Translations under genes and position numbers: made by a program
DNA from: Mobula hypostoma
Taxonomy: Eukaryota
Length of the DNA: 64,000 nucleotides
Assembly: GCF_963921235.1 (NCBI RefSeq)
Contig: NC_086108.1
Coordinates: 20,894,001-20,958,000, forward strand
Direction: 5' to 3'
The notes under the pieces: model-generated
Told to the model about the DNA's origin: nothing
Seen by the model: only the letters and a program-made list of their open reading frames with translations
The model's database searches: none
In this document: one piece after another, positions 2,871 to 59,923 of the stretch
How the letters are laid out: the number at the start of each line of letters is the position of its first letter
Position numbering within the stretch: the first letter of the stretch is position 1

Positions 2871-2984
2871 CGTAATATACTGTTAAGAAGTTAACATCTT
2901 TGCAGGCCTCTTGTGACCCTGGCTATTTTGTAAGGGTCATAGCGGCTAAGACTTTGACAAAAAGCATAGAAGCATAAGTGTTTC

Positions 2985-3795
2985 AAAAAATGAATGCGGG
3001 AAAAGGAGTAAAGAATGTCTCAGGAAAAACCCCCTTGCCAGGTTGTCCTTTTGAATGCATCCAGCTTGATTTTACTGAATTGCTGCGTGTACAATGTTAC
3101 AAGTATTGTTTAATCGTTGTAGATGTGTTCAGTAGAAAGATTGAAGCCTATCCAACCACCAACAACAAAGCCTCAACGGTAGTGAGACTGCTACTCACAG
3201 AGATCAAACCAAGATTTGGGGTACCCCAACATATAAACTCAGATAATGGTCCTCACTTTGTAGGAAGGATAAATAAGGAGTTGTGTGAGGTACTGCATAT
3301 CGAGCAACCGTTCCATTGTACCTACCACCCCAGGGCAGCAGGCATAGTGGAAAGAGCACCCTGAAAAACAAATTGGCCAAACTGATACCTGAAACTGGCC
3401 TAAATTGGCTAAAAGTTCTTCCGTTGGCACTGTACCATGAGGATCACTCCCCATTCGACTACTGGGGTGCTGGCCGCCGAGGTCATCTATGGGCGCCCAC
3501 GGATGCCAATACCCAACTCCCCACCCAAGCTGATCTCAACATCATGGGGGACGAGTTACAAAGGTATTTCAGACAGTTAACATCCTCTTTAAAGTTTCTT
3601 CATTCACAGGTGCAGGAGGCGTTCAAGCCACAAAGAGTACTGGAGGCAGAGTGGCCTGACTTGTACTGATAAGGGATTGGGAGCCCCCCAAGCTTGGATC
3701 CCAGTAGAAGGGACCCCTCCAGATACTTCTCCAGACACTCACTGCAGTAAAAGTACAAGGTCACAACCATTGGATTCACCTGAGTGATTGCAAGT
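2985..3795 (+). pseudogene. Retroviral integrase, frameshifted
   Basis: The DDE core is visible as IQLDF, SDNGPHF and GIVER. A GPY/F-like C-terminus (KGPLQILL..TAVKVQGHNHWIHLSDCK) lies in another frame. Confidence 0.9.
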
Positions 3796-5190
3796 GATGG
3801 CCGCCGGAAGAAAAATGATCATGGTTGGACTTGGACTCTTTATCATTGCCGTCACCTTTATGGTGACTGCTCTAGAGGAAAATCTGTTTTATAAAACCCA
3901 TATGCAGCTGCATGGTAATCGTACTGTGTGTTATGCGCTTGCCAAATCATTAGAAGCCCTGCTTGTAGCCACCCCAGGATGGAACCCTCGGAGTTTGTAC
4001 ACCACAGATACCTCGGACACCCCCTGCATAGGAAGGACAGGCAGGTTCTGGCAGGGGACAAAAGGGCAATGTGTAGAACTTCTATACAACGATAGGAGGA
4101 AATCCCCAAGACCCAACTGCATTGGGTCTCATCCCGTTAAAGGAACAAAGGCTAACTGTTCTGACCCTACTGTTTTGGAGGAGAAGGCTGGGGCTGTGTA
4201 GTATGTCTGGTTCCTAACAATATCTCTTGCACAATGACTCATTACATACGCCAAAGATGCAGAATACAAGGAGGATGGTTTAGTTGTGCATGTACAGAAT
4301 AACAGTGTTTTAATGTGACCATGGGACCGCAGAGGGTCTATGGGAAGTGCAACGGGATGCATGTTACTACAGGTTCCCTGATATACCCATATAACACTTC
4401 AGATTTTAATCCACATGCAGGAACCAGTGACTGGCACAAGAAACAAATGACGAGAGCAGGGAACTCAACCATAAAATGCTACTGGGATAAGGAGAGATTC
4501 GTTTTCCTTCTTAATGGAACTCTTACCACCACCACATCCACTCTACCAGCCTTGTTTGCGGTGGGAACGATTGGGCCGGTCACAGTCCCCTGCCCCCAAA
4601 AGGCTCATGTCTGACGAAGACTCATGGCACGGACAGTAAGTAAGGAGTTCTGTGCGGACTGGAAGGATCCAGTCACGCCAGGCTACTCTTTTGGTTATGG
4701 GTTTCTGAGTACTCTCTCTTTAGGGGGTTTGACAGGGACCATAGCCTCAAAAAATCAGAATTATCTTATTTGTGGGCTGACTGTGCTAGGAAACAGTTCC
4801 ATGGAAGGACTGGAGGCCATAAATAAAGAGCTGGCAGAGTTGCGACTGTACGCCCAACAAACCCGGTATGCTGTAGACTACCAGTTGGCTCTGCAAGGAG
4901 TATATTCCTTAGTAGGGGACAAGTGTATCACCCATGTCACAGACAAACCATATAATATAACACATGCTATTCAGTCTATTAAGAAACAATTAGATGATTT
5001 CAGGCAAGGTCCCAAACCAGGTAATGGGTGGTTAAGGTTGGCTATTAGGAGGTTGCTGGGGTTCCTATTTGCCACATGGGCTTATTACAATTATAATTGC
5101 TCTTATTGCTATGTGTGTGTTATTAGTTTGTATTATTATGTGTTGCAAGATGTGTCTGCATGAGCTAAGAAATTCATTTTCAGCCCCAAT
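3788..5190 (+). pseudogene. Retroviral env with stops and frameshifts
   Basis: Hydrophobic signal peptide, Cys-rich SU and a basic site (RRLMAR) near 4615-4632. These are followed by a glycine-rich fusion-peptide-like stretch, a heptad repeat and an ISD-like QQTRYAVDYQLA. A membrane-spanning segment follows a frameshift near 5035. Confidence 0.85.
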
Positions 5191-5226
5191 CTGAATATAT
5201 TATCATGAAATGATAAAAGGAGGGAA

Positions 5227-6819
5227 TGTAATATATTGTTAAGAAGTTAGCATCTCGCAGGCCTCTTGTGACCCTGGCTATTTTGTAAGGGTCATAGCAG
5301 CTAAGACTTTGACAAAAAGCATAGAAGCACAAGTGTTTCTCACAAGATAAGCTGAGCGAGTGATATTATTCTTGGTATGCGACCCTATAACCTCAGTCCT
5401 TGCTTAAGGACAGTCTGTACCATTGTTTGATTAACTGCTGTAAGAAACATAGTGCTTGCTAGATAAGCATTACAACGAATGCTTGTTTCAAGGGTGGGAA
5501 ACTCTGAGGGGTAAGCCTATGTCTGGCTGTTCCCTGTCACGAACCCTGTGACAGGAATAAAAAACCAGCAGAGATGGAAAACACTTTGGAGTCCAGTATT
5601 GCTATAAACTAATAATATTTATTAGTAACTACGCAATACAGTAATATAAATGTAGATAAATCAAACAGGTTAGCAATGATCATATATATATCAGTAAGTG
5701 TGGAAATACATGTGTGAAAAACCAAGCTTCAAGTCTTGGGGTAAAAAGATACAGTCTTACGATGATGAGTACAGTTCAGCTCAGTTCAGTTCGTGGTATT
5801 TAGTTGAGTAGCGATGGAGAGAGAGAGAGGGAGAGATTTGAGTCTTCAGGTGAGCTGACGCCGATCTTCTCGTTGTCCTTCGAAGTCCTTTAAAAGTCAC
5901 CGACTGTGACTTTAACAAAGGGGACCGGTTTTCTGTGGTGGAATTATCCCCCAGACGAGGGTGGACACATGGACAACTCCCCACCAGTCAACCCTTTTCC
6001 TCTTTCCACTGCAAGAGCGATGGATCGATCCGCCTGATTGATCCTCCGAAACCCACTTTTCCTGCAGGCACAACAATGCTCATTCAGTGTCCAGAACATG
6101 TGTCTGAGGTCTGTATCATCTGACCTTCTGAGGTCTGTATCATCTGACCTCCTACTTTATCTTCCCGTGCTGAGCATCAACTGTCATTCAAATAATCCCT
6201 CCTTCCTCTCTCTGTGAAAGAAATGAAAGCAGGCAAAAATCCTTGAAGAAAGTATCAATAACTTGCCGGAAATCATAACATCGAGTGTCCATTAAATAGC
6301 ACCACCTTCGGTCACCACAGCAACTTACGAGCTGCTTGGTGCTATCTCCAACTTCAGCAGAAATTCAACAGTTAACCAGTTCTTTCTCGTTCCTTAAAGT
6401 GACAGTCCTACAGTTAGTCTTCGTCTCTCCCTCTCTTCTACAAACAAGCTATCGATGGTAAATAACTCTCTCTCTCTTTTCAAAAGCACAGTTAATAGGG
6501 GTAAACGAACACAGTTCATGGGGTAATTCAGGTTCCCATCACATCCCCACATAAGGGTAGTTAAGCTGTTACACAAACAATTTATGGCTGATAAGTTAAA
6601 CAATACTCATCTGTACAGAAACTAAGGGGGTGAACCCACCTGTATCTATGTACGTGACTGTATATGTATAAAAAGCACTGTACTTGCTTCAAAAGCCAGA
6701 GACCCCAGAGCAGCCCAAGAGAGGGGTCTCTCTGGTAACTTGCTAATAAAGAGTTAAAGTTACATTCACCATAGTACGTGGTGTCTTTGCATCGGGTAGA
6801 TCGAAAGAAGTTTACGACA
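5227..6819 (+). repeat. ERV 3' LTR (about 580 bp), interrupted by a nested solo LTR
   Basis: TG...CA ends, an upstream PPT, TATAAAA near 6668 and AATAAA near 6745. Confidence 0.85.
5535..6543 (-). mobile_element. Solo LTR (about 1.0 kb) of an unrelated LTR element
   Basis: TGTCAC...ATCACA termini with a perfect 4-bp TSD TCCC (5531-5534, 6544-6547). Orientation is inferred from a minus-strand AATAAA near 5618. Confidence 0.82.
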
Positions 6820-7265
6820 CCGTGGCAGGTCATCCCCCACGAAAGTATCCCAAGCAGTATACTTGTTTTTGAGGGAAATGGCCACAGGGGTTCACTGCTC
6901 TAACTGCCTATTTCCATTTCTCCTGACAGTCACCCAGCTACTTGCCTCCTGCAGCCGGGGGGTGACTACTACCCTGTAACTTTGATCGATTATATCCCCG
7001 TACTCCCGTACAAGCCGAAGGTGATTCAGTTGCTGCTCCAGATCCTTAATACAGTCTTCAAGGAACTGCAGCCGGATGCACTTCACGCAAATATAGTTCC
7101 CCGGGATATTCTGGGTCTCCCAGTTCTCCACCATCCGGCACAAAGAGCACACCACAGCCATTTAAATGGTACAGTAAGAGAGGGAAAAAAAACAAAAAGG
7201 AAACCTCTTCCAAGCCGAAGCCTGTCACTTCTACTCTTGCCACTGCCCCTTCGCAACAATGGCCA
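6820..7265 (-). mobile_element. 5' part of the same CR1 (5' UTR and ORF1 N-terminal Zn/leucine-zipper region)
   Basis: ORF 6892-7161 (CSLC...YICVKC...LEQQL) is similar to CR1 ORF1 at 42662 and 53844. Confidence 0.85.
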
Positions 7266-7289
7266 CTCTACTTATCCCTTCTGTACATT

Positions 7290-7447
7290 TATTTAGTTCG
7301 TAGAGCTCTGTTGACACCACTGATAGGCCACATACAATGGATAAACGCTCTCGAAGCTCCATTTTGAACAACCGTTGCCAACCTGAGAGAAATCCCTCTT
7401 GGTAGAGCTCTGTTGACGCCATTGATAGGCCACGTACAAACTAAATA
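7290..7447. mobile_element. Small non-coding element with 13-bp terminal inverted repeats and 38-bp internal direct repeats
   Basis: TATTTAGTTCGTA...TACAAACTAAATA termini. Direct repeats lie at 7300-7337 and 7402-7439. Confidence 0.55.
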
Positions 7448-8029
7448 TGGGTGTTGAATCAGTACATCCAAAGACTAAATAGAAAATGTATGACAAAACA
7501 ACTGTAACAAACCAGTTTGCTACATTATTGTTGTAATTAACTGAATTTGGCACTTGAATACTATGAAAGATTGAACCAACTGACTTTACATCAATAATCA
7601 TTTCTGGTTTAGCATATGATGGTTAATTCTGAATTAGAACTTCTACATATGAAATCAATGTTCCAGGAATACTCACATCTGGAAGAATTCTCCATCAAGG
7701 CCTGGCAATACAAGAAGCATCCAATTATGCCATATGTATTTTTTTGTTTTGGTTAGTTAAAATGCAGTTAAGTGTTCAATTGAGTTCTCTCAAACAGCAT
7801 TAACTTCCGTACTATTGATAACCAAATGAATTTCTGGAAGGCTAACATTTTACTGCTGCAGCCAAACTGGGTAGAAACAGTTAACTTTTAAAATGCCTCT
7901 GCAGGACTTTAACTTTCTTATGCCTGTTTATATTTTTATATCATCATTTATATAAGGTACATTGTTCAGTATTTTTTTTAAGTGCCTGCAGTTGCTTTTG
8001 TATCTTTCTGGAAACTTTTTAGTTTCAGT

Positions 8030-10430
8030 GGTGAGTATCGCATAATTTGAATAGAGGCTATCTTATTAATTAATTCAAGCAGCGGAATTTGAATGGAATA
8101 TGTGTCTAATCAGCAGTCAGGTATAAGAGGACGAGACTACCTTGCTTCATTCTGTCTTTCTTTTTTCTTTTGTCTTTGTTCTTCCCCGGGGCCACCAGGG
8201 CTTTGCTTTTACTCAGTTATCTTATTTTCCCCTTGTTCTCTTTGTTCTTGTAACGCTTATTAAAACAATCATAAGCAACAAGTTTTATGCCTCATTCTTG
8301 ACTTCAAAAGAACCTAGAATCACAAAACCCATCAGGATCTAACAGCTTTGGTGTGGTCGGCAAATGGTTGAAGATTTAAGGATTTCGAAGAATCCCAAAA
8401 AAGTGGAAAGTTTCAGTGTGCATATTTAATAGGAGGTAAGACTTTGCTCCTTATTTTCCTGATTGTCCAAGAAATTGCCTAGTCCTTGCTTCAATGCACT
8501 ATCTAATGGAAACTTAAGAGTAAAGGAGAAGTCTATTATACTTTACTGTGCTATTCTGGAAAAGTCCACTGAAATTAAAATCTTAATCAAATTAAGTTTG
8601 TACTCACTGGTGAAACACCTAAGAGACCTTCCAACTGTAATCTGGTGTTTAAAAAAAAACAAACGCACACCTTTAGAATACAATCCAGTAAGAAAAACCT
8701 ATCGTTTGCAAATCAATAACATTCCAAATATTGAGTCTAATGAAACATGGCTGCAGTACGAAGACATGGAATAAGATCCAAAGAATGTTTGATGGAAAGA
8801 GAAAAACTGGGTGGACTTTAGTCGTCTTATTGTTATTATCTTGGTTAAAGAAACCAACACATCCTCAGTTTGAAAGTCAGATACATGATGAGCTAATGAA
8901 ACAAGTTAACAAAACAAGTGGAAAAGGAAAAGGAAAACTGATAAACTACAAAAACACTATGACAGGAGCAGTAAAAAGTCTAAAGAGCAAATCTTTGCAT
9001 TAACAGAATGAGTAAAAATAAAAGTATAATCAAATTGAAGTAAATTACAGCAGTTTCAGAAAACCCAGCAAGGACGTCAAGTGGGAGGTTCTGCCAGTGA
9101 CACTCAATCTTGGGAAACACCCAATTTACTGAAACAAAGCCATCATCTGAACTCCAAGGAATTATGGCATGAACTTGATCTGATATCCACAGCAAGTTTC
9201 AGCAACTCAAGTGAGTATGACCGTGATGAACAATAGGATTGGCATCAATGTCACAACTTGCTCTAATGAAGACCAAGGAAGTGAAGACACACAGGAATGA
9301 AGGTGGAACCTATGAAAGGTTTTGCATCAACCACCTGAACCCGAGACAATTGATAAATGGTCAAAAGAAGTTCCACATCCTAACAAAAAAGGAAGTTTAA
9401 GAACCTGGGCTGAACTTCAATTTATTGGGAACAATACAAATTACATCCATATGATGGCATTCAAATTTTGGGTACCATGTTGTCTTCTCAGCAGATCAGA
9501 GAGTTGATTCATAGAGGTGACGACAACATGGGAGATGATAAACAAAATATACAAGGTGGTTGGGATGCTATCAAGAGGTGGTTGGAAGAATAGACCCCAT
9601 CAGATTGATTGGAGGAAAGTAGTCAATTGCAAGCAAAAGATTTCTGAGGATGTTTCTAAATATGAGGAGGGCTATGGGACAGCTTGGTTAAATTATAAGG
9701 AGTTCCGAGAATAAATGAAGATAACAGAGCACTCTATATATGGTCCCTTGAAGTGAACTTTTATGGATGTCTTGAAATCAAATATTCCCAAAATGGTGAA
9801 GCTGACAGAAATGAATTGGAGTGAAGTTGGTGTCCATATAGTGAGCAAGCTGCCAATCAAATAGAACGATATATTGAAATCCAAATAAGATCATTGCAAT
9901 TGTGTCTGTTATCTGTTGATCAACAGCCACTGATTATGGGTCAGCAGTCCTTGCTGGCTCGCCAACAGCCACAGCTACTGCAGGTGAGTCAACAGCCACT
10001 CATTAACAGAAAAAGTGGGACTGAAATTCAGTGTGCACCACAGCAACCTCTGTCTGAATAACCCCCTAAAACAAAATGTCACTTTTGTGATAAAAGAGGA
10101 CAATGGGCTAGAAGTTATTGGCATAGGAAACAAGGTGGATAACAGAAACAAGCTCAACAAGAAGTTCAATCTTCTGCCCCACAAATGTTTGCAGATTCTT
10201 GATCTGGTGTCATGGTTTTAACAAGCAGTTTCGGTTATAATGGATATATCGTTGAATTCAGAAAATGACTAAGCTTTTACCCATAGCCCTTGCTTGTCTT
10301 GATAGAACAAAAACCAGAGAGTTTAAATATTAACTTACTAATTGAAAAGGAATGTGACAAATTCTAATTGGATACAGGAGCTAAGCTAATGTGTATGAGC
10401 GATACTATTCCCAAAGGTACAAAATACTAC
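8030..10430 (+). mobile_element. Second, older ERV: 5' LTR (left end approximate), PBS, decayed gag and protease
   Basis: LTR-like segment with TATAA and ATTAAA, ending in CA at 8344, followed by a PBS. MHR-like CKQKISEDVSKYEE near 9630, a degenerate zinc knuckle CHFCDKRGQWARSY at about 10077-10118, and protease DTGA near 10371. Confidence 0.75.
8349..8366 (+). promoter_or_regulatory. Primer-binding site, tRNA-Ser-like
   Basis: TGGTGTGGTCGGCA lies just after the LTR end and resembles the complement of a tRNA-Ser 3' end (TGGCGTAGTCGGCAGG). Confidence 0.6.
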
Positions 10431-22936: not shown

Positions 22937-24750
22937 TCTACAGTTATATAAATAGCAAAAGGATAGTGAGGGATAAAATTGGTCCCTTAGAGAATCAGAG
23001 TGGACGGCTATGTGCGGAGCCAAAAGAGATGGGGGAGATTTTGAACAATTCCTTTTCTTCGGTATACACTAAGGAGAAGGATATTGAATTGTGTAAGGTA
23101 AAGGAAACAAAAAGGGTAGTTATGAGAAGTTTGACGATTAAAGAAGAGGAAGTACTGGTGCTTTTAAGGAATATAAAAGTGGATAAATCTCCAGGTCTGG
23201 ACAAGATATTCCCTAGGACCTTGAGGGAAGTTAGTGTGGAAATAGCAGGGGCTCTGACACAAATATTTCAAATGTCATTAGAAACAGGGATGGTGCCGGA
23301 GGATTGGCGTATTGCTCATGTGGTTCCATTGTTTAAAAAGGGTTCTAAGAGTAAACCCAACAATTTTGGGCCTGTGAGTTTGACATCAGTGGTGGGTAAA
23401 TTGATGGAAAGTATTCTTAGAGATGGCATCTATAATTAGCTGGATAGACAGGGTCTGATTAGGAACAGTCAACATGAATTTGTGCGTGGAAAGTCATGTT
23501 TGACAAATCTTATTGAATTTTTTGATGAGGTTACTAGGAAAGTTGACGAGGGTAAAACGGTGGATGTTGTCTATATGGACTTCAGTAAGGCCTCTGACAA
23601 GGTTCCACACGGAAGGTTAGTTAGGAAGGTTCAATCGTTAGGCATTAATATCAAAGTACTAAAATGGATTCAGCAGTGGCTGGATGGGAGACGCCAGAGA
23701 GTAGTGGTCGATAACTGTGTGTCAGATTGGAGGACGGTGTGTAGCAGTGTGCCTCAGGGATCTGTACTGGGTCCAATGTTGTTTGTCATATATATTAATG
23801 ATGTGGATGATGGGGTGGTAAATTGGATTAGTAAGTATGCAGATGATACTAAGATAGGTGGCGTTGTGGATAATGAAGTAGGTTTTCAAAGCTTGCAGAG
23901 AGATTTAGGCCAGTTAGAAGAGTGGGCTGAAAGATGGCAGATGTAGTTTAATGCTGAAAAATGTGAGGTGCTACATTTTGGTCGGACTAATCAAAATAGG
24001 ACATACATGGTAAATGGTAGGGCATTGAAGAATGCTGTAGAACAGAGGGATCAAGGAATAATGGTGCATAGTTCCCTGAAGGTGGAATCTCATGTGGATA
24101 GGGTGGTGAAGAAAGCTTTTGGTTTGCTGGCCTTTATTAATCAGAGCATTGAGTATAGGAGTTGGGATGTAATGTTGGAATTGTATAAGGCATTGGTAAG
24201 GCCAAATTTGGATTATTGCGTACAGTTCTGGTCATCGAATTATAGGAAAGATGTCAATAAAATTGAGAGAGTACAGAGGTTTACTAAATTTTGCCTGGGT
24301 TTCATCTCCTAAGTTACAGAGAAAGGTTGAACAAGTTAGGTCTCTATTCTTTGGAGCGTAGAAGGTTGAGAGGGGACTTGATAGAGGTGTTTAAAATTAT
24401 GAGGGGGATTGACAGAGTTGATGTGGATAGGCTTTTTCCATTGAGAGTGGGGGAGATTCAAACAAGAGGACATGAGTTGACAGTTAAAGGTTAAAAGTTT
24501 AGGGGTAACATGAGGGGGAACTTCTTTACTCAGAGACTGGTAGCTGTGTGGAACGAGCTTCCAGCAGAAGTGGTTGAGGCAGGTTCGATGTTGTCGTTTA
24601 AAGTTAAATTGGATAGCTATATGGACAGGAAAGGAATGGAGGGTTATGGGCTGAGTGCAGGTCGGTGGGACTAGATGAGAGTAAGAGTTTGGCACCGACT
24701 AGAAGGGCTGAGATGGCCTGTTTCCGTGCTGTAATTGTTATATGGTTATA
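22937..24750 (+). mobile_element. 5'-truncated CR1 LINE
   Basis: [26 protein letters not shown] and RPNLDYCVQFW motifs, plus a CR1 3' UTR with a TTATATGG tail. Confidence 0.93.
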
Positions 24751-25219: not shown

Positions 25220-25303
25220 ATGATTAAACCTTCTTGTGAAAGCTACAACATTTGGCGAAGAACTGTGTTTTTCTTTTTTGTTCCACCCACAACTTGATAG
25301 CTC
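25220..25303 (-). CDS. RALGPS2: RalGPS-family internal coding exon, 84 bp, [28 protein letters not shown]
   Basis: The minus strand reads tttttctttcag|GAGCTA...AATCAT|gtgagt and joins in frame to the 51-bp exon. SSCGWN and FNH resemble RALGPS2, while KH and NV resemble RALGPS1. Confidence 0.92.
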
Positions 25304-25572: not shown

Positions 25573-26630
25573 TAGAAACCATAGAAACTACAGCACAGAA
25601 ACAGGCCTTTTGGCCCTTCTTGGCTATGCCGAACCATTTTCTGCCTAGTCCCACTGACTTACACACAGACCATATCCCTCCATACACCTCCCATCCATGT
25701 ATCTGTCCAATTTATTCTTAAATATTAAAGAAGAACCCACATTTACCACCTCATCTGGCAGCTCATTCCATACTCCCACGCTCTCTGTGTGAAGAAGCCC
25801 CACCTAATGTTCCCTTTAAACTTTTCCCCCCTCACCCTTAACCCATGTCCTCTGGTTTTTTTCTCCCCTTGCCTCAGTGGAAAAAGCCTGCTTGCATTCA
25901 CTCTATCTATACCCATCATAATTTTATATACCTCTATCAAATCTCCCCTCATTCTTCTACGCTCCAGGGAATAAAGTCCTAACCTATTCAATCTTTCTCT
26001 GTAACTGAGTTTCTCAAGTCCTGGCAACATCCTTGTAAACCTTCTCTGCACTCTTTCAAAATTATTTATATCCTTCCTGTAATTTGGTGACCAAAACTGA
26101 ACACAATACTCCAGATTCGGCCTCACCAATGCCTTATAAAACTTCATCATAACATTCCGGCTCTTATACTCAATACTTCGATTACTAAAGGCCAATGTAC
26201 CAAAAGCTCTCTTTACGACCCTATCTACCTGTGACGACACTTTTAGGGAATTTTGTATCTGTATTCTCAGATCCCTCTGTTCCACTGCACTCCTCAGTGC
26301 CTTACCATTAACCCTGTATGTTCTACCTTGGTTTGTCCTTCCAACGTACAATACCTCACACTCGTCTGTATTAAACTCCATCTGCCATTTTTCAGCCCAT
26401 TTTTCCAGCTGGTCTAAGTCCCTCTGCAGGCTCTGAAAACCTTCCTCACTGTCTACTACACCTCCAATCTTTGTATCATCAGCAAACTTGCTGATCCAAT
26501 TTACCACATTATCATCCAAATCATTGATATAGATGACAAATAACAATGAACCCAGCACTGATCCCTGTGGCACACCACTAGTCACAGGCCTCCACCTGGA
26601 GAAGCAATTCTCTACTACCACTCTTTGGCT
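25573..26630 (-). mobile_element. 5'-truncated CR1 LINE
   Basis: ORF 25743-26621 (PQGSVLG, FADD, RPNLEYCVQFW) and a TTCTATGG tail. Confidence 0.93.
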
Positions 26631-26687
26631 TTTTCTTCTTCTTGTTTTATGGTGGTCAGCACCCAGCTTAATGGTGCATTACCGCCA
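26631..26687 (-). mobile_element. I/Nimb-like LINE 3' stub
   Basis: The minus strand reads TGGCGGTAATGCACC...GCTGGGTGC...(GAA)n. The flanking 15-mer CACTTGTGGTGTGTT occurs at 25556-25570 and 26688-26702. Confidence 0.65.
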
Positions 26688-26915
26688 CACTTGTGGTGTG
26701 TTCTCCGAATGCTTGTCTTTTATATACTTATCATCAGTTGATTGGCCATCATTACTGAAATTCAATTATGACATAGGGAAGGAGTGCACAGAGTTCACCA
26801 CACAACCAATCGGCGATGAGACCCCCTCCCGACATCACAATTAAGTTTCCGTAATGACAACCAATCAACTGATTGATAAGTATTTAAAAACCAAGCACTC
26901 AGAGGACACATAAGT

Positions 26916-26953
26916 CCTGGGTGCCAACCGCCGTAAAACAAGAAGACAACGAC
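26916..26953 (+). mobile_element. I/Nimb-like LINE 3' stub
   Basis: CTGGGTGCCAACCGCCGTAAAACAAGAAG, with TSD GACACATAAGT at 26905-26915 and 26954-26964. Confidence 0.65.
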
Positions 26954-27238
26954 GACACATAAGTGAATAAGCTCATTGAAGAAATCGCCTCATATGGTGA
27001 CAAAACATTTGCAAGTGGATTGCCAAGATCAAAGAACAACTCAAGCCAACCATCAACCTCCCATGCTACATATTTTCTGAGTTATCCTTAAACTGTACTA
27101 AGAGATATTTGTCCCGTTAAACCTGCTGCAACAGATTATCACCTAAACTAAGAAATAATTGAATTTACAGAGAATTGCATAAGAAATAGTAACAGCTCAC
27201 ACAGAAATATCCTACAAATGTATCGATCTTGCAAATAC

Positions 27239-27457
27239 ATCAAAGTTGCTGGTGAACGCAGCAGGCCAGGCAGCATCTCTAGGAAGAGGTATAGTCAACG
27301 TTTCAGGCCGAGACCCTTCATCAGGACTAACGAAGGGTCTCGGCCTGAAACGTCGACTGTACCTCTTCCTAGAGATGCTGCCTGGCCTGCTGTGTTCACC
27401 AGCAACTTTGATGTGTGTTTTTTGAATTTCCAGCATCTGCAGGATTCCTCTTGTTTG
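27239..27457 (+). mobile_element. Short Penelope-like insertion with an inverted 5' half
   Basis: An inverted repeat with arms of about 80 bp and a 15-bp TSD CGATCTTGCAAATAC (27224-27238, 27458-27472). It has the same terminus as the GIY-YIG-type copies elsewhere in the window. Confidence 0.85.
27292..27329 (-). ncRNA. Minimal type-I hammerhead ribozyme motif
   Basis: The minus strand reads UAGUC-CUGAUGA-AGGgucucggCCU-GAAAC-GUU-GACUA, giving stem I, an intact core, stem II and an NUH site. Confidence 0.72.
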
Positions 27458-29404
27458 CGATCTTGCAAATACGATTGGTTTTATGTCTGTGCTACATTCT
27501 CCCACAATCTCCTATCAATCCTGTACCTTGATATTTTAATTGTCCACAGAAACAAGATTAGTGATCACTTCCACACAGTAAGATACTATAGGCACTGGAA
27601 CAACAAAAAAATGTTAGAAATGTACCTGTTTGGGGGGTGGGGAGTTGGTGAGTGGAAGAGGAGAGGAGGAAGGGGCAGGATGAGGGTGAAAGAAGATTAA
27701 CCTTTCAGATGGATAACGGTTTTGGCACAACTCATGTATACATCCCCTACAATTATCATCACCATTTGTGCTAACAAGTCCTCTTGATCTCTATCAAAGA
27801 CTTTCCTTTGTTCTCTCCATGCATCATACAATAGAAAACATGCTGGATTTCTAACTTTTCCTAATTCTGATGAAAAATCATGGACCCAAAATGTTAACTG
27901 CCTGATGGTGCCTGAACCTGCTGACCTCTTTTGACTTGTATTTCTATTTCAAACTGCTGACTTTTCATCAACAATTTTGCTTTGAACTTCACCACTAAGA
28001 AGTTCCTATCTGCCCTTGATAAGGTGCTGACTTTTTGAATTGCTGCAGTTTCTTTTCCACATGCAGGTTCCCCTCCAAGTTACACACCACCCTGTCTCGG
28101 AAATATATCAGTGGTCTTGCTTTGTCACGGTGTCTAAACACTAGAATTTTCACCCAGTACCATGATGGGAGCACCTTCACCAGAAGAATATCAGTACATG
28201 AGATCCTGAAAGTAGTTTTTAAAAATCTTAGCACTGATTCATGTGTCTTTCTTTGGCTGCTACCCATTAAATTACTCCAAGTCAAAAAGATGCCTTATCC
28301 AAAAATAGCAACATCTCAACCTCAAAGACAGGTTGCACTACTTTTTAATATCTCAGCTGAAAGGCAATATATTAAATAAGTCAATAATTAATCAGCACAA
28401 CATTGCAGTGTCTACCCTTTGCTCAGTGCATTTTTCAAGAAGTAAAATTAAACCTGTATCTTACTCAGCAAAAGCAAGTAAGCTCAACTGAAATACAACA
28501 AACACAGTTCTTATTTAGCTGCCTTCATACCCAAGAAAGCTCATAAACAGACTTTTTTTTTATATATATACATGGGCAATTTTCAAAACAAAATATACAA
28601 GGTCATGACAAAAATTGCAAGGGTTGCATTTTCCAAAAATATTTTTCAATATTGCCATTAGAAGAATTCTGGTGATCATTTCAGGTTCTTCTTTTGAAAT
28701 CTTAAGTTTGGCTAGCCAACATCTTTTTATGTTATTGTAAGTTCATATCTCATATCATAAAATGATTCCATTGAAAGTTCCCTGGCACTTTGCTGGTAAA
28801 TAGACTCCATAACCACTGTAAATTACTTGGTTTTTTTTTTGCCTCCCAAGATCACTCCCTATCCTTGATTTCTAACAAATCCACTTATGAAGTTTAAGCT
28901 TAGCCTGACTGGTCAGCAAATGCTCAACCTTCAGCATTGCTTCTCAACCCCAGAAATAGTTTCCAATAAGTTTCTTCATTGCATTACTACAATCATGATT
29001 TCCCCTTATTACACTGCAGGACTATGATAGGAATGAATTAGTGCTCAAAAAGATCATTTTCAATAATTAAGTGTTCAGACTAGGAACCTCGGTGAAATAT
29101 TGGCCAGCGGAACTTCTCAGTCACATAAAAATATACTTAGATCCTAAAATTCCAAGTGCAAATAATAAATAGGTTGCCCAGAATTAGACACAAATACCAA
29201 TTTGCTGTACAGTATTCCCACTCAATATCAGCAATTACTGATGTTATACTATCATGACAGTTTGTAGAAATTTTCAGGAATAACATGATAAATATAAGAC
29301 ACTGAAGTAAATAGAAAAACTTTGATGTACGTACGTTCCAACAGCAAGTCACAAATCACACAAATATTGTGATACATCTTTACCAAAATATAAAAACAAA
29401 ATGC

Positions 29405-36449: not shown

Positions 36450-37492
36450 CAGGGACATTAGGAAATCAGACAGTGGGTGGGGGGGGGAGGGTGGAGGAAA
36501 ATGTGCTGGGTGGTGAGATCTCATCAGAGGCGGCAGAAGTTACAGATAATTATGTGCTGGATGCAGAGGCTGGTGGGGCTCCCCCCCCCCCATCTTTCCA
36601 CAGGGATCGCTCCCTACATGACTCTTTTGTCCATTAGTCCCTCCCCACTGATCTCCCTCCTCACACTTATCCTTGCATGCAGAACAAGTGCAACACCTGC
36701 CCCTTTACCTCCTCCCTCAATATTATTTAGGACCCCAAACAGTCCTTCCAGGTAAGGCAACACCTGAGAGTCTGTTGGGATCTAGTGCATCTGGTGCAGC
36801 CTCCTGTATATCAGTGAGACACGATGTACACTAGAAGGCTGCTTCACTGAGCACCTATCCTCCGTGGTCCACCAAAAAAAAGTGGGACATGCCAGTTGCC
36901 ACCTATTTTAATTCCACTTCCCATTCCGGCATGTCAATCCTTGGCCTCCTGTACTGCCACAACGAGGCCACACTCTGGTTGGAGGAGCAATACCTTATAT
37001 TCCTTCTGTGTAGCCTCCAACCCAATGACATGAACATCGATTTCTCGAACTTCCGTTAATGCCCCCCCCCCACTTCCTTCACCATTCCTCATTCCAAGTT
37101 CCCTCTCTCACCTTATCTCCTCACAAGCCTATCACCTCCCTCTGGTGTTCCTCCTTCTTCACTTTCTTCCATGGTCTTTTGTCCTCTCCTATCAGGTTCT
37201 CCCTTCTCCAGCCTTTTATCTCTTTCACCAATTGATTTCCCAACTCTTTACTTCACCCTTCCTTCTCCTGCACCCCCCCAACCCTGGTCTTACCCATCAC
37301 TTGGTACCTTATATTTATTCCTCCCCTCCCCAACCTTCTAATTTTTTCTCTCGGGTCCTGATGAAGACTCTCGACCCAAAACATTGACCGTTTACTCTTT
37401 TCCATAGATGCTGCCCAGCCTGCTGGGGTCTGCCAGCATTTAGTGCGTGTCACGTGGATTTTCAGCATCTGCAGATTTTCTCCTGCTTATGA
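36450..37492 (+). mobile_element. Penelope-like element fragment (GIY-YIG region and terminal repeat, short inverted 5' part)
   Basis: CNTCP, LYISET and LEEQYLIF-type motifs, with a degenerate hammerhead near 37355. Confidence 0.8.
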
Positions 37493-38129: not shown

Positions 38130-39745
38130 TGAGGGGCAAAGGAAAAACTGGAAGAGGGAAGGAAGAAAGTAAGAGATGCAGGAGGAGTTGAGGAAGAAAG
38201 GAGGAAAGTGCCGATTCTGATTCAGATTCAGATGAGATAAGGGAAGCTGGGAATTTCTGAAAGTTTCATCTGATGGAACTGGTCTTCATACTCAACAATT
38301 TTTTTTTGGCTCCTCCCACTTTCTCCAATCTCAAGGGTGTAGCCATGGGCACATTGATGACTGTATTGATGCTACTTGATTCTGAGCTCATCAATTTCAT
38401 CAACTTTGCCTCCAACTTCCACTCTGCTCTTAATGCCACTTGGTCCATTTCTGACACCTCTCTCCTCATCTCTCTGTCTCCATCTCTGGAGACAAAATGT
38501 CCACCAAAATCTTTTATAAACCTACCAACTCCCATGGGTCTCTTGACTGTACCTCTTCCTAACATCTCCTGTAAAAATGCCCTTCCTTTTTCCTCAGCTC
38601 CTTCGTTCCTGTCACATCCATTCTTAGGATGAGGATTTCCTTTCCAGAACAAAGAGTTGCCTTCCTTCTTCAAAAAACAGGGTTTCCCTTCCTTCACCAT
38701 TAACACTGTCCTCAACCGCATCTCCTCCATTTCCTCACCTCAACAGCATAGAGCTCTTCTTGCCCTCACCTACCACCCCATGAGCCTCCGCATCCAGCAC
38801 ATCATTCTCCACAACTTGTGACTCCTTCAATAGGACCCTATCACCAAACACATCTTTACCTCCCCCCACCTTAATCTCTGCAGGTAATGCTCCCTCTTGT
38901 GATTCTTTTGTCCGTTCATTCCTCCTGACTCTTATCCCTGCAAGTGGAAAAAGTACTACACCTGCCCATTCATCTCCACCCTCACCTCTATTTAAGGCCC
39001 CAAACAGTTTTTTCTGGTGAGGCAACACTTTATCTATGAATCTGTTGAGGTTATTATTTGTATCTGCTACTCCCACTGCAGCTTCTTCGACATCGGTGAG
39101 ACCGGACATAGACTGGGGAACACTTTGCTGAGCATCTTCTTTCCATCCACAAACAGCAGGATTTCCTGGTGGCCAATTATGTTAATTCTAATCCCCATTC
39201 CACATGCCAGTCCATGGCCTCCTCTAGTGCCACGATGAGGCCACTCTCAGGTTGGAGGAGCTACACCTCATGTTCCAACTGCATAGCCTCCAACCTGATG
39301 ACATGAATATCACTATCTCCAACTTCTGGTAATTTTCTTCCTTCCCCCTTCAATTCCACAATCTGGCTCCCCTCCTACCTCTTCTCTTCACCTGCCTATT
39401 ACCTCCCCTGGTACCCCTCCTTCTTCCCTTTCTCCCATGGTTCTCACACTCCTCCTATCAGATTTATTCTTCTCCAGCCATTTACCTTTCCCACTTATCA
39501 CCTCCCAGCTTCATACTTCATCCATCTTCTCCCACCCACCTGGCTTTAACTATCAATTTCCAGCCTGTACTCCTTCCCCTCCCCCACCTTCTTATTATTG
39601 CTTCTTTCCCTTTCCTTTCCAGTCCCGATGAAGGGTCTCATCCCGAAACATTGACTGCTTATTCATTTCCTTAGATGCTGCGTGACCTGCTCCTCCAGCA
39701 TTCTGTGCGTGTTGCTCTGGATTTCCAGCAACTGCAAAGTCAGTT
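38130..39745 (+). mobile_element. Penelope-like element fragment (RT C-terminus, GIY-YIG, terminal repeat, inverted 5' part)
   Basis: KGVAMGT, FINFASNFH and DIGETGHRLG motifs, with a degenerate hammerhead near 39621. Confidence 0.82.
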
Positions 39746-40397: not shown

Positions 40398-43300
40398 AAA
40401 AAAACTCAAGTGCAAGCAAAATTAGAATGCATTAGAAGTCTGCATTTACCTCCATATTTGAAATATATGTCCTCTGAAGCTACCAGTAAACTTGCACAAC
40501 ATTTTAAGTTCTCAGTTCCAATGGTAATTAACTGACTTGAAATAGTAATTCCATTTCTCACTACAGTTGCTAATTTCCACCATATTCTACTTTTTATTCT
40601 GATAAAGCCAGAGATGTGTGTTACTGTTTTGCACAGATTATGTAATTGCAGTATCCTGACTACTTAATCATTAGCATACAAATCAGATGGAATTGGTTCA
40701 AATATGTGTGCAATCACCAAATAAAATTAGTTTAAAACAAAAAAGCTACCTTGTGCTAAAATAAGTTACGAAGTTAAGTACATGTAGGGACAGCCACATG
40801 ATACATTTCTGTTAGAAAAACAACTCTCAAAATCGCAATTCCCATTGTTTTTACCTGTGTTTAAGATGGGGACGAAATAAGAGCATGAAATAAAAAGAAT
40901 TGTTTGGAGGAAGCACATAGGGCATCCATTGATTTCAAAAGTAGACAATTGAATGAAAATACTTTTTTTAAAACTTAGTGCTTGAACAAGACTCAAGAAC
41001 CTAACATAAAAACACTAGATTCAAAATAAACAGACATTTGTTATTACAATCTGCAAACTCCCTTTTTACCTAATGAAATACATAGCCAACATTTAATATT
41101 GCTTGCAATTTGAACATACTCTCACCAGAATATTTTACAAATATATAAAAATTGTTTGATTCTTTCAAGTAAATGCTAACTAATATAATTTAACCCCTAT
41201 GCATAAGAATGAGAATTAAATTATCATTTGCAAATTACTTCAGCTTCATGTACAGCTGTATAGTTTCCAACACTAAAATCATTCAACTCTAAGTTAAGGA
41301 GTCCTCCTGAAATTCATCCAAATATTTTACAAGCATTGTAAAATCTGAACTTCAAATCTAAGTTTCACAAATTCTTGATCAGGCATAATATAAGAAAAAC
41401 ATATCGCTTCATTGACAAGAGTGACTTAGTTTATGGTGGCATTATTAATTGTACAAATTTACCAAAGAGAAACAACTAATTGACATGAGAAGGTGCATAC
41501 TCCATTCGTGTAAAATAGCTCTATTAGTCCTTATTTAATAAAAACTGCAACACAGTGTAACCAGATTTGGCATTCATACTGCAATTTACTTATCTTGCAT
41601 CAAAATCAGATAGACAACTTTATTAAATTGTCACAATATAACTATGCAGCTTCATTAACCAGAACAGGACTACAAGACTCAGCCCACCCAAGGCCACAAC
41701 AGGAGCAAGAGTAAATGGAAATTAAAACTCAAGGCAACCTCTTAGTTTCACAACCAGAGGCAATCTAATATGAACAGCAACTAACTATATCAACTCTTAG
41801 AATAGGTCTTAAACACATCTACTGGCATGCCTTTCTGCACAGTTCATTCAGTTGACCTCAAGTTTCCTGTTCTCTGCCACTTTATTTCACTAACCAATTC
41901 CCATTCTAAGCATCACACACAAAATGCTGGTGGAACGCAGCAGGCCAGGCAGCATCTATAGGAAAAGGTACAATCGACGTTTCGGGCCGAGACGCTTTGT
42001 CAGGACTAACTGAAAGAAGAGATAGTAAGAGATTTGAAAGTGGGAGGGGGAGGGGGATATCCAAAATGATAGGAGAAGACAGGAGGGGGAGGGATGAGCT
42101 GGAAAGTTGATTGGCAAAAGGGATACAAGGCTGGAGAAGGGAGAAGATCATGGGACAGGAGGCCTAGGGAAGAGAGAAAGGGGGAGGGGAGCACCATATA
42201 ATGAGAGGGACAGAGGGAGAAAAAAGAGAGAGAAAGAAAGGGGAAAAAATAAAAAATAGTAAATAAATAAGGGATGGGGTAAGAAGGGGAGGAGGGGCAT
42301 TAATGGAAGTTAGAGAAGTCAATGTTCGTGCCATCAGGTTGGAGGCTACCCAGACGGAATATAAGGTGTTGTTCCTCCAACCTCAGTGTGGCTTCATCTT
42401 GGCTCAAGAGGCTTCGGCGAGCAGAGGCTGAGGACGAGCTTGCTCCCAGTGAGGTAAGGCCAGGCCTGCGCAGGTATGTGACCTCAGAGCGCAGAAGGCT
42501 TAAAAAGAACACCGCCATATCCAGTGGGCAGCGGAGTGAGAGGGTGCAAAGTGATAGGGCTTAGGCGGAAACGGGAAGAGGCTTCCTGCGACTGTTGAGT
42601 CTCATAGTAAAGGGGTAAGTTACAAGTTTATTTATTTAGTAATAACAGTAGCATTAGAGGTATGCATCTAGGATTAGTGTTGTGCTTGGAGTGCCAGATG
42701 TGGGGACCCTGGGAGACTCCCAGCCTCCCCAAGGATTACATCTGCACCAGGTGCATTGAGATGAGGTTCCTTAAGGACCATGTTAGGGATCTGGAGCTGC
42801 AACTTGATGACCTTCAGCTAATTAGGGAAAGTGAGGAGATGATTGATAATACCTATAGAGAGACAGTGGACAGCTTCTCTGTGACAGTCCCCCTCAGAAA
42901 CCGATATATCATTTTAGATACAGTTGGAGAGGTTGACCTGACAGAGGAAGACCACAGCGATGGCACTCTGCTCAGTGTCGTGAACAAGAGAGCAAGGAGA
43001 AATGCCGTAGTTATAGGGGATTCCATAGTGAGGAGAACAGACAAGAGATTCTGTGAGCCGGACAAGGATACCCGGATGGTGTGTTGCCCCCCTGGTGCCA
43101 GGGTACGGGATGTCTCAGATCGGGTCCAGAGTGTTCTGAGGAGAGAGGGCAAGCAGCCAGAAGTCTTGGTACATGTTGGTACCAGTGACATACACAGAAA
43201 AAGAGAGGAGGTCCTGAAGGAAGATTACTGGGAGCTAGGAAGAAAATTGAAAAGCCAGACCTCCACAGTAATAATCTCAGGATTACTGCCTAAACCACGT

Positions 43301-47343: not shown

Positions 47344-48770
47344 CAGGTTTCCCCTGCCATCGAAGGTACAGCGTTCCTATGAGACAGTTCGTAAGCCGAA
47401 ACATCGTAAAGCGAAGAAGCAATTACCATTTATTTACATGGGAAAAATTTGTGAGCGTTCACAGACCCAAAATTAACCTACCAAATCATGCCAGATAACA
47501 CATAAAACCTAAAATAACAGTAACATATAGTAAAACCAGGAATGATATGATAAATATACAGCCTATATAAAGTAGAAATACTTTTCCACAATCATTACTG
47601 AACTGTTCTCTGTAGCAAAAAATCTCACACAAGCGCCGTCGGCAGAAAATCTCACGCAAGCGCTGTTGGCAAAAACACGGCGCAAGCGCTCTCCAGTAAC
47701 CTTTAAGCTATGAAGCTGCCAAATCATACCAAATAACACGTAAAAATACACAGCCGATATAAAGTAGAAATAATGTATATACAGTGTAGTATCACTTACC
47801 GGAATTGGTTCAGCGCCAAGCACACTGATGATGGTGTGTTAGGCTGAGTCCTCGTCCTCACAGGTTGGGTGGTGCAGTGGCCCCCACCCTCCAGGCCACC
47901 GACAGATACTGAACCGCGAAGCATGCAGGGGTCCAGCGGTAGCCGGGAGGCACACAGCACATCTTTAAGAAAAAAGCCGAAATAAACATGCTAATTAATT
48001 ATGTGTCGGGCAGCACCTAATTAATTAGCATGTTTATTTTGGCTTTTTTCTTAAAGATGTGCTGTGTGCCTCCCGGCTACCGCTGCATTCTCCGTCAATT
48101 GCTGGGTGGTGGGACACTGGGGTGTCATCTTGTCGTCTGTTTCCATTAGAGCAGGCAGCTCATCTTCTCCTATGACTGCCTGCCTCGATGTCGAAGGTCG
48201 AAGTTTGTCGTCTGCTGTGGCTGATGCGGAAGGCTTGCTTGTCTGCTGAGCCTCGCGCATTTTTCTATCATACAGTTCTTTATAAGGACTCAAACCATCC
48301 TGCAAATATCCCCTAAACCTACGTACCCTCTCAAAATTAAAGTCGTACTTTATCGTCATGGGATGCCAAAACCTCTTCAACATCATCTTCGTCAACTTCC
48401 ACAAGCCAAACTCACTTTGTCCTTACTTCGTTCACCACGATCGAAACGCTTAATTATGTCTAGTTTTACGCTAAGTGTAACACCCTTACGAGCTCTTTTA
48501 GGCTTTTTCGATACCTTAGAACTCATCTTGCTAACGGCTGCTCACAGGCACGTGTTTAAGCAATGCCGGCGAGAATGCAGTTGTGAATCCGGGGGAGAGC
48601 GGCTGCTCGCGGTGCACACTGCCCTTTATCGTGTGCTGATTTTCCCCGCGCGCTGCTTTTTTTTCGTAACAGTGAAAACACCTTCTGAAAGCGAAAACAG
48701 GGTACTAATGTAGGTCTTTCATAACAGTGAGATTTCGTAAAGCGAACATTCAAAAAGTGGGGGACAGCTG
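47344..48770 (-). mobile_element. Internally deleted Tigger/pogo DNA transposon
   Basis: TA TSDs and CAG-initiated imperfect TIRs. The minus strand encodes an HTH-like N-terminus (KRARKGVTLSVKLDIIKRFDRGE) and C-terminal SPYKELYDRK, with no DDD core. Confidence 0.85.
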
Positions 48771-48787
48771 TACATACACACCCCCAG

Positions 48788-48837
48788 GAGGTGTAGTCCT
48801 GACGAAGGGTCTCGGCCTGAAACGTCAACTGCACCTC
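48788..48837 (+). ncRNA. Minimal type-I hammerhead ribozyme motif
   Basis: GAGGUGUAGUC-CUGACGA-AGGgucucggCCU-GAAAC-GUC-AACUGCACCUC. The core is intact, with one mismatch at the base of stem I. Confidence 0.7.
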
Positions 48838-48929
48838 TTCCTACAGATGCTGCCTGGCCTGCTGCGTTCACCAGCAACTTTGATGTGTGTTGCTTGAATT
48901 TCCAGCATCTGCAGAATTCCTGTTGTTTG
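48794..48929 (+). mobile_element. Minimal Penelope-like terminal insertion
   Basis: 11-bp TSD CCCAGGAGGTG (48783-48793, 48930-48940). The sequence matches the plus-strand half of the 27239-27457 insertion. Confidence 0.85.
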
Positions 48930-59872: not shown

Positions 59873-59923
59873 CTCAGGTTGAATAGCTTTAAAAACTGGC
59901 GCATCCATTAATGTTATCTGACT
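59873..59923 (-). CDS. RALGPS2: RalGPS-family (Ral GEF, CDC25 domain) internal coding exon, 51 bp, SQITLMDAPVFKAIQPE
   Basis: The minus strand reads ttttttag|AGTCAG...CCTGAG|gtgagt, with canonical splice sites and phase 0/0. The peptide matches the RalGPS QITLMDxPVFKAIQP motif as I recall it. Paralogue assignment (RALGPS2 or RALGPS1) is uncertain. Confidence 0.9.

What the first reader, a model, noticed from the sequence alone, without database searches (positions are those of the whole stretch)
27239..27457. Intact hammerhead ribozyme core in a tiny palindromic Penelope-like insertion, sense to the host pre-mRNA
Seen: the minus strand of 27292-27329 has all hammerhead core nucleotides (CUGAUGA, GAAA, GUU site), a 5-bp stem I and a 3-bp stem II. 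It has essentially no stem III (self-complementary AACGUU). The insertion has a 15-bp TSD, and its inversion point falls inside the ribozyme. Known: Penelope-like elements carry minimal type-I hammerheads thought to act as dimers. Inference: this copy is transcribed within the RalGPS intron about 2 kb upstream of the 84-bp exon and could cleave the pre-mRNA. The surrounding hairpin would compete with ribozyme folding.
Basis: partly seen in the sequence, partly recalled or inferred. Interest (0 to 1): 0.7.

Follow-up and report, generated by a model that had tools for sequence, protein, structure and literature searches.

The report
Penelope retrotransposon stump with masked hammerhead
This is a short, mirror-image leftover of a very common Penelope-type jumping gene in a shark-or-ray intron; its self-cutting RNA motif is real but is one of tens of thousands of copies and is predicted to be locked in a long hairpin, so it likely does nothing to the host gene.

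Summary
The motif, the 15-bp target duplication and the position in a RALGPS2 intron, sense to the gene, are confirmed. The insert is two head-to-head stumps of the end repeat (pLTR) of a Neptune-type Penelope-like element; a full-length copy with RT and GIY-YIG domains is in the same genome. The hammerhead motif has 47,887 exact matches genome-wide. This copy has GUU instead of the family's GUC, has no stem III, and folding it costs about 50 kcal/mol against an 88-bp hairpin. RALGPS2 holds seven other intact sense-strand copies and shows no sense depletion. Stems are conserved but do not covary. Cleavage of the pre-mRNA by this copy is unlikely; it was not tested on RNA. The layout (inverted pLTR, one-sided tail) is published, and this scan noted such inserts before in other shark and ray genomes. 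One family-level result goes further: a third of copies stop at the 5' edge of the hammerhead (33 of 95, 3.8 expected), and almost none at its cleavage site. This hints that the element's RNA begins at stem I.

The parts
27224..27238 (.). Left target-site duplication (15 bp); its last 2 nt also match element sequence
   Evidence: D1, 100%
27239..27331 (-). Inverted pLTR arm without tail (element positions -7 to about +87, counting hammerhead C3 as 0); 3 differences from the family majority in 95 nt
27292..27329 (-). Minimal type-I hammerhead motif: 5-bp stem I, CUGAUGA, 3-4-bp stem II, GAAA-CG-UU; predicted cut between 27297 and 27296
   Evidence: sequence; descriptor in PMC4209133
27330..27331 (.). 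Inversion junction, a 2-nt overlap shared by both arms; the same junction occurs at 214 loci in the genome
27330..27457 (+). Direct pLTR arm (element +3 to +130); its hammerhead copy lacks CUG and the 5' strand of stem I; 6 differences from the family majority in 128 nt
27415..27457 (+). One-sided tail of about 43 nt, present on this arm only
27458..27472 (.). Right target-site duplication; its first 2 nt also continue the element sequence
25220..25303 (-). Host RALGPS2 coding exon (84 bp, AG..GT), about 2.0 kb downstream of the insert in the direction of transcription
59873..59923 (-). Preceding RALGPS2 coding exon (approximate bounds); defines the ~34.6-kb intron that holds the insert

Best explanation
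It is a 219-bp, 5'-truncated, two-armed insertion of an abundant Neptune-type Penelope-like retrotransposon in a RALGPS2 intron, and its hammerhead motif is a passenger from the element's end repeat that is likely inactive here. Inferred mechanism: the element's endonuclease cut both strands about 11-15 bp apart. Reverse transcription started from both cut ends at the element's two start sites, one giving the tail and one not. Both cDNAs stopped near the 5' edge of the hammerhead and joined through a 2-nt overlap. In the pre-mRNA the two arms are predicted to zip into an 88-bp hairpin that buries the ribozyme, and the copy has since drifted (GUC to GUU).
For: Shown. A full-length partial tandem L210 has pLTR, a 1043-aa open frame and pLTR, with RVT_1 (E 2e-5) and GIY-YIG (E 0.002) hits and a Cx4CxxC linker. 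There are 54,872 exact copies of a 30-nt pLTR word and 47,887 of the ribozyme motif. In 40 of 40 kept inverted pairs one arm has the tail and one has not; the 4 dropped pairs show the same. Among 21 inserts with this exact junction (this one and the first 20 listed of 214) the tail is on one arm in 13 and on the other in 8, outer ends and TSDs differ, three subfamily signatures occur, and both arms share the signature in 20 of 21. So each palindrome is built anew, and in 8 cases, this one included, simple fold-back copying of the first arm cannot give the longer second arm. Whole insert: MFE -198.4 kcal/mol, z -22.6. Forcing the hammerhead fold costs 49.6-51.0 kcal/mol, against 7.3-12.9 for six other sense GUC copies in the same gene. 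Published: inverted pLTR with one-sided tail (PMC8557442; PMC3846280); both-strand cutting and two RT start sites, a ribozyme that needs the element's protein and is not needed for insertion (PMC11167929); no monomer activity and low dimer activity of minimal hammerheads (PMC4209133).
Against: Inactivity is predicted from folding and literature, not measured. A-to-I editing or proteins could loosen the hairpin (inference). The orientation test has only 13 intact copies in one gene. Both Pfam hits are below their curated cut-offs. The two-primer mechanism is inferred from end positions; the in vitro support comes from a Poseidon-clade element, not this one.
Confidence: 0.88

Rival explanations
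1. One reading: this copy folds as a hammerhead in the RALGPS2 pre-mRNA, as a dimer with another copy or helped by a protein, and cleaves the intron, affecting splicing or transcript level.
For: The core nucleotides and a 5-bp stem I are present and sense to the gene. A change at +32 turns a U.G pair of stem I into U-A. Conserved intronic hammerheads derived from retroelements exist in amniotes (PMC6155905, passage). Tandem retrozymes are reported to be depleted in introns in Xenopus (10.64898/2026.07.22.740005).
Against: About 50 kcal/mol penalty; the complementary arm is transcribed first, so the penalty is 45 even on nascent RNA. No stem III; GUU site (weaker than GUC, recalled). No intact sense partner nearby. 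No depletion of sense copies: 23 to 25 overall, 8 to 5 intact. No covariation.
Confidence: 0.04
2. The palindrome is a self-propagating non-autonomous mini-element (retrozyme- or MITE-like) that is copied as a unit.
For: The same junction occurs at 214 loci and another at 404. Retrozymes are argued to derive from pLTRs (10.64898/2026.07.22.740005, abstract).
Against: Among 21 copies with this junction the tail switches sides (13 against 8), outer ends vary and three subfamilies contribute. The 21 short-short pairs show many different junctions. It is not a tandem array.
Confidence: 0.04
3. The insert matters as a perfect double-stranded RNA hairpin (editing substrate, small-RNA source, splicing modulator) and not as a ribozyme.
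For: An 88-bp, 94% paired hairpin about 2 kb from a 3' splice site; it scores on miRNA hairpin models.
Against: Such hairpins are common: 7 short-short pairs lie in the 664 kb around the window. The Rfam scores are below gathering. Nothing marks this copy as selected.
Confidence: 0.04

Closest known systems
Endonuclease-bearing Penelope-like element insertions with inverted pLTR, one-sided tail and TSD (Adineta Pen2a, PMC3846280; general scheme in PMC8557442)
   Same: Head-to-head pLTRs, a short extension on one arm only, a TSD, heavy 5' truncation.
   Different: Here only the last ~95 and ~128 nt are present; the tail is about 43 nt (30-40 published) and the TSD 15 bp (8-10 in Adineta).
Minimal type-I hammerheads of metazoan PLEs (Cervera and De la Pena 2014, PMC4209133)
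   Same: 4-5-bp stem I, extra nucleotide between 9 and 10.1, palindromic 15.2-16.2, no stem III, thousands of solo copies.
   Different: G10.1-C11.1 is G.U in most young copies; this copy has GUU and lies in a hairpin. Copy number (47,887 exact) is above the 4,000-9,000 given there for coelacanth and Xenopus, counted by another method.
PAc, Poseidon element of Anolis (Frangieh et al. 2024, PMC11167929)
   Same: Two RT start sites that define the tail; both strands cut and extended; no sign that cleaved RNA is the template.
   Different: Different clade. In PAc the ribozyme overlaps the start codon; here the first in-frame ATG is 166 nt downstream of C3.
Conserved intronic hammerheads of amniotes (RECK and others; PMC6155905)
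   Same: Type-I hammerhead in an intron.
   Different: Those are conserved across species; this is a young repeat copy (3-5% from the family majority) with no evidence of conservation.
Non-LTR retrozymes (tandem type-I hammerhead repeats)
   Same: Non-coding, hammerhead-bearing, related to pLTRs.
   Different: Retrozymes are head-to-tail tandem units; this is a head-to-head pair built at insertion.

Membership tests
EN+ Penelope-like element | Parent element with one ORF holding RT then a C-terminal GIY-YIG endonuclease | tested here: met
   L210: 1043-aa open frame; RVT_1 534-696 and GIY-YIG 946-1022, both below curated cut-offs
EN+ Penelope-like element | Partial-tandem pLTRs that carry the hammerhead | tested here: met
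   Direct repeats on both sides of the ORF in L210 and L211; motif seen
EN+ Penelope-like element | Inverted 5'-truncated copy with a one-sided tail | tested here: met
   This insert, and 40 of 40 kept pairs
Neptune clade | CX2-5CxxC linker between RT and EN | tested here: met
   Cx4CxxC found; PMC8557442 gives an extra Zn-finger-like linker for two clades, so the motif alone may not single out Neptune
Neptune clade | RT groups with Neptune in a tree | not tested
   No reference PLE proteins were fetched and no tree was built
Minimal type-I hammerhead | Core CUGANGA, GAAA, UH with stems I and II | tested here: met
Minimal type-I hammerhead | G10.1-C11.1 pair at the base of stem II | tested here: not met
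   G.U (or A-U in the other register); U in 78 of 115 young copies. Described as highly conserved, not as obligatory
Minimal type-I hammerhead | Covariation in stems I and II | tested here: not met
   37 sequences: 85.6% of cells paired (slid controls 12.6-42.3%), covariation score 0.123, reached by 254 of 500 shuffles
Active hammerhead ribozyme | Fold accessible in its RNA context | tested here: not met
   Predicted penalty 45-51 kcal/mol; stem I pair probabilities about 1e-34
Active hammerhead ribozyme | Self-cleavage as monomer or dimer | not testable with these tools
   Needs a bench assay or end-mapping reads
Rfam hammerhead families | Match to a curated model | tested here: not met
   No hammerhead family among 17 matches at E<=1
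Non-LTR retrozyme | Head-to-tail tandem units each with a hammerhead, copied as a unit | tested here: not met
   Head-to-head arms; tail side varies among copies with the same junction

The most novel reading that the evidence does not exclude
The family's RNA begins at stem I of the hammerhead. Stumps like this one are 'strong-stop'-like products: RT primes in the upstream pLTR of a tandem transcript and runs off the RNA's 5' end. The ribozyme would then sit at the very 5' end, where a cut removes only the cap and about 32 nt, acting as an off-switch or translation control and never producing the template. That would explain why a third of copies stop at -8 to +13 and almost none at the cleavage site, and it makes the open question of what Penelope hammerheads do directly testable.
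Probability: 0.3. Interest if true: 0.5.

Novelty: new member of a known kind. Interest (0 to 1): 0.17.

Why it matters
As a single locus it matters little: it is one of tens of thousands of copies and among the least accessible in its own gene. If it did cut the pre-mRNA, repeat-borne ribozymes would be a genome-wide influence on shark and ray transcripts, but the evidence points the other way. The useful yield is at family level. The inner ends of insertions pile up at the ribozyme's 5' edge and avoid its cleavage site. This agrees with in vitro work showing that uncleaved RNA is the template, and it names a testable position for the RNA's 5' end.

Tried and rejected
Rfam: no hammerhead hit. 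RNA evidence: no RNA holder listed for the unique exon region; two lays of contigs from runs with a small share were dominated by other repeat copies, listed no place where many molecules begin or end and showed no GT..AG joint at the candidate acceptor; contigs cannot show ends, so this counts neither way. 'U11.1 is decay of this copy': rejected, it is the family majority. 'Inserts are copied from cleaved RNA': rejected as a main route; 1 of 100 arms starts at +28; nested genome counts 65,198, 63,523 and 59,896 cap starts at +27 to +29 at about 3.4% even if no loss is due to mutation; junctions centred on the cleavage-site palindrome, which that probe misses, number 56 loci against 404 for one junction at -3/+2 (perfect palindromes may be lost more often). 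'Hot spot is only annealing of two cDNAs at a palindrome': not sufficient, about 26 of 62 hot-zone arms look single-armed by a crude test. 'Hot spot is a splice junction': the upstream sequence resembles a branch point, pyrimidine tract and AG, as in Drosophila Penelope (PMC4209133), but by eye no shared upstream exon precedes the truncated copies; not excluded. The length correlation between the two arms (21 short-short, 15 long-long, 4 mixed) does not separate an RNA end from synchronous stalling and is open to detection bias. Whether older families share the hot spot could not be resolved. Lunse et al. on dimer cleavage was not held and is known here only from a review's passage.

Full report
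Observation. The minus strand of 27292-27329 carries a minimal type-I hammerhead: stem I 27329-27325 with 27296-27292 (5 bp), CUGAUGA at 27324-27318, stem II at 27317-27305, GAAA at 27304-27301, a CG with no loop, and U16.1-U17 at 27298-27297. The insert 27239-27457 is flanked by an exact 15-bp duplication and its arms are 88 nt, 94% complementary. Rfam lists no hammerhead among 17 matches at E<=1. The real junction is a 2-nt overlap at 27330-27331: it lies just outside stem I of the minus-strand motif and cuts the CUGA box of the plus-strand copy.

Host. The 84-bp AG..GT exon at 25303-25220 matches RalGPS1 in the PDB (E 2.6e-11) and is identical to RalGPS2 of several sharks and rays. Mapping with those proteins on 664 kb of contig C50 places coding exons from window +81,591 to -351,118, all on the minus strand; residues 210-280 and untranslated exons were not mapped. 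The insert lies in a ~34.6-kb intron, about 2 kb before the 84-bp exon, sense to the gene.

Family. Five more copies lie in the window. The 34-nt ribozyme motif has 47,887 exact matches in G000 and a 30-nt pLTR word 54,872; the reversed controls have 0. Longer copies lead into a GIY-YIG endonuclease and RT. L210 is a full partial tandem: pLTR, 1043-aa open frame, pLTR, with RVT_1 and GIY-YIG hits below curated cut-offs, a Cx4CxxC linker, and the first ATG 166 nt after C3. I call it Neptune-type from the linker (PMC8557442, passages); no tree was built. The two arms differ from the family majority at 3 of 95 and 6 of 128 positions. One change is C17 to U; C stands in 105 of 115 young copies. 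The G.U pair at the base of stem II is the family majority, 78 of 115.

How the palindrome arises. Of 44 inverted pairs found, 40 were kept (4 dropped for unexplained gaps over 40 nt). All 40 have one arm with the ~40-nt tail and one without, and so do the 4 dropped. This layout is published (PMC8557442, passages; PMC3846280, passages), and the tail was traced in vitro to two RT start sites with both strands cut and extended (PMC11167929, parts 1-2 of 4). The exact junction of this insert recurs at 214 loci. In this one and the first 20 listed, the tail is on one arm in 13 and on the other in 8; ends and TSDs (7-16 nt by a rough measure) differ; three subfamily signatures occur, shared by both arms in 20 of 21. 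So the palindrome is made anew each time, from one source RNA or locus. In the 8 cases, this one included, the arm that fold-back would have copied is the shorter one, so self-priming (proposed in PMC3846280) cannot give them; priming from both cut ends can. This step is inferred.

Could it cut the pre-mRNA? The region folds as one hairpin (MFE -198.4, z -22.6); even the 50-nt core alone prefers another fold. Forcing stems I and II costs 49.6-51.0 kcal/mol, and 45.2 on RNA that ends right after stem I, because the complementary arm is transcribed first. Between the first and last coding exons there are 48 hammerhead-like motifs, 23 sense and 25 antisense; 13 pass an intactness filter, 8 sense and 5 antisense. 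The seven other sense copies are all GUC; six cost 7.3-12.9 kcal/mol and one 45.1. The sample is small but shows no avoidance of the sense strand. Minimal hammerheads showed no monomer activity and low dimer activity (PMC4209133, parts 1-2 of 4); the Anolis one needed the element's protein. That GUU cuts less well than GUC is recalled, not from a call. On 37 aligned motifs (this copy, L210, and 35 of 71 non-young hits, chosen for a near-intact stem I 5' strand, which raises the pairing figure) 85.6% of cells pair against 12.6-42.3% for slid partners, but covariation equals the shuffles (254 of 500). The fold is conserved, not covarying. Against my reading: one change improves stem I (U.G to U-A), conserved intronic hammerheads exist in amniotes (PMC6155905, passages), a preprint reports that tandem retrozymes avoid introns in Xenopus (10.64898/2026.07.22.740005, part 1 of 5 and passages), and no cleavage was measured here.

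A family-level result. For the first 100 exact anchors downstream of the ribozyme on contig C1, chosen without regard to upstream length, 33 end at -8 to +13 (C3 = 0), with a peak at -3, and 1 at the cleavage site. Against the background rate that is 33 of 95 at risk with 3.8 expected; on C50, leaving out this insert, 15 of 31 with 2.3 expected (copies treated as independent). About 26 of 62 such arms look single-armed by a crude test, so annealing of two cDNAs is not the whole cause. Genome-wide nested counts (65,198; 63,523; 59,896) cap starts at the cleavage site at about 3.4%, and junctions centred there number 56 against 404 for one junction at -3/+2. The simplest reading is an RNA 5' end at stem I, where the sequence resembles an initiator (consensus recalled). 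It also resembles a 3' splice site, and in Drosophila Penelope an intron ends at helix I (promoter and intron in PMC2377424, passages). An RT pause is a third option. I could not separate these. Four answered searches on Penelope elements listed no title or abstract opening that describes such a hot spot; most subscription papers, Repbase and Dfam were not searchable, and no supplements were read, so lists of shark or ray motifs there may bear on novelty.

Earlier notes. After I found that this scan had reached much the same verdict for at least eight findings in other genomes, most of them described as sharks or rays. These are unchecked notes, not support. A look-up by sequence found nothing.

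Verdict. A real motif in an ordinary, probably inert stump of a known kind of retrotransposon. Interest 0.17. The hot spot at stem I is the only lead worth carrying forward.

Noticed in passing
window 23693-24747 and 25577-26629: Two ~1-kb CR1/LINE-like fragments in inverted orientation (75% identical) flank the 84-bp RALGPS2 exon on both sides; such pairs could favour exon skipping or circularisation (inference).
   Followed up: no
window 58028-58851 and 58762-59370: A larger palindromic insertion of a related Penelope-like subfamily with GIY-YIG endonuclease sequence in its arms; its hammerhead is mutated.
   Followed up: partly
window 48794-48929, 41903-42400, 37355-37488, 39621-39736: Further pLTR copies; 48794-48929 is single-armed, TSD-flanked and starts at the 5' edge of stem I.
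   Followed up: yes
window 2978-5163 (+): Frames that look like a retroviral integrase and envelope fragment, in several separate frames, antisense to the host gene; resemblance recalled, seen only.
   Followed up: no
window 47934-48085 and 26637-26946: Two other hairpin-shaped elements, MITE-like; the first is 93% self-complementary over 152 nt.
   Followed up: no
L212 (oriented 3308-3345): A near full-length copy whose ORF is preceded only by the ~38-nt tail repeat and an inverted piece, like the solo ORF with 34-bp repeats described for Drosophila Penelope.
   Followed up: no
L094 and L133, at the anchor: Two copies share the same unrelated sequence directly before pLTR position +36, suggesting a chimeric subfamily without the hammerhead.
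   Followed up: no
older families, e.g. L074:4290-4339, L080:2174-2223: Several older copies share C in place of A6 in the CUGA box (8 of 35), perhaps a subfamily that spread with an altered core; 35 of 35 have a C before the AG at the start of stem I.
   Followed up: no
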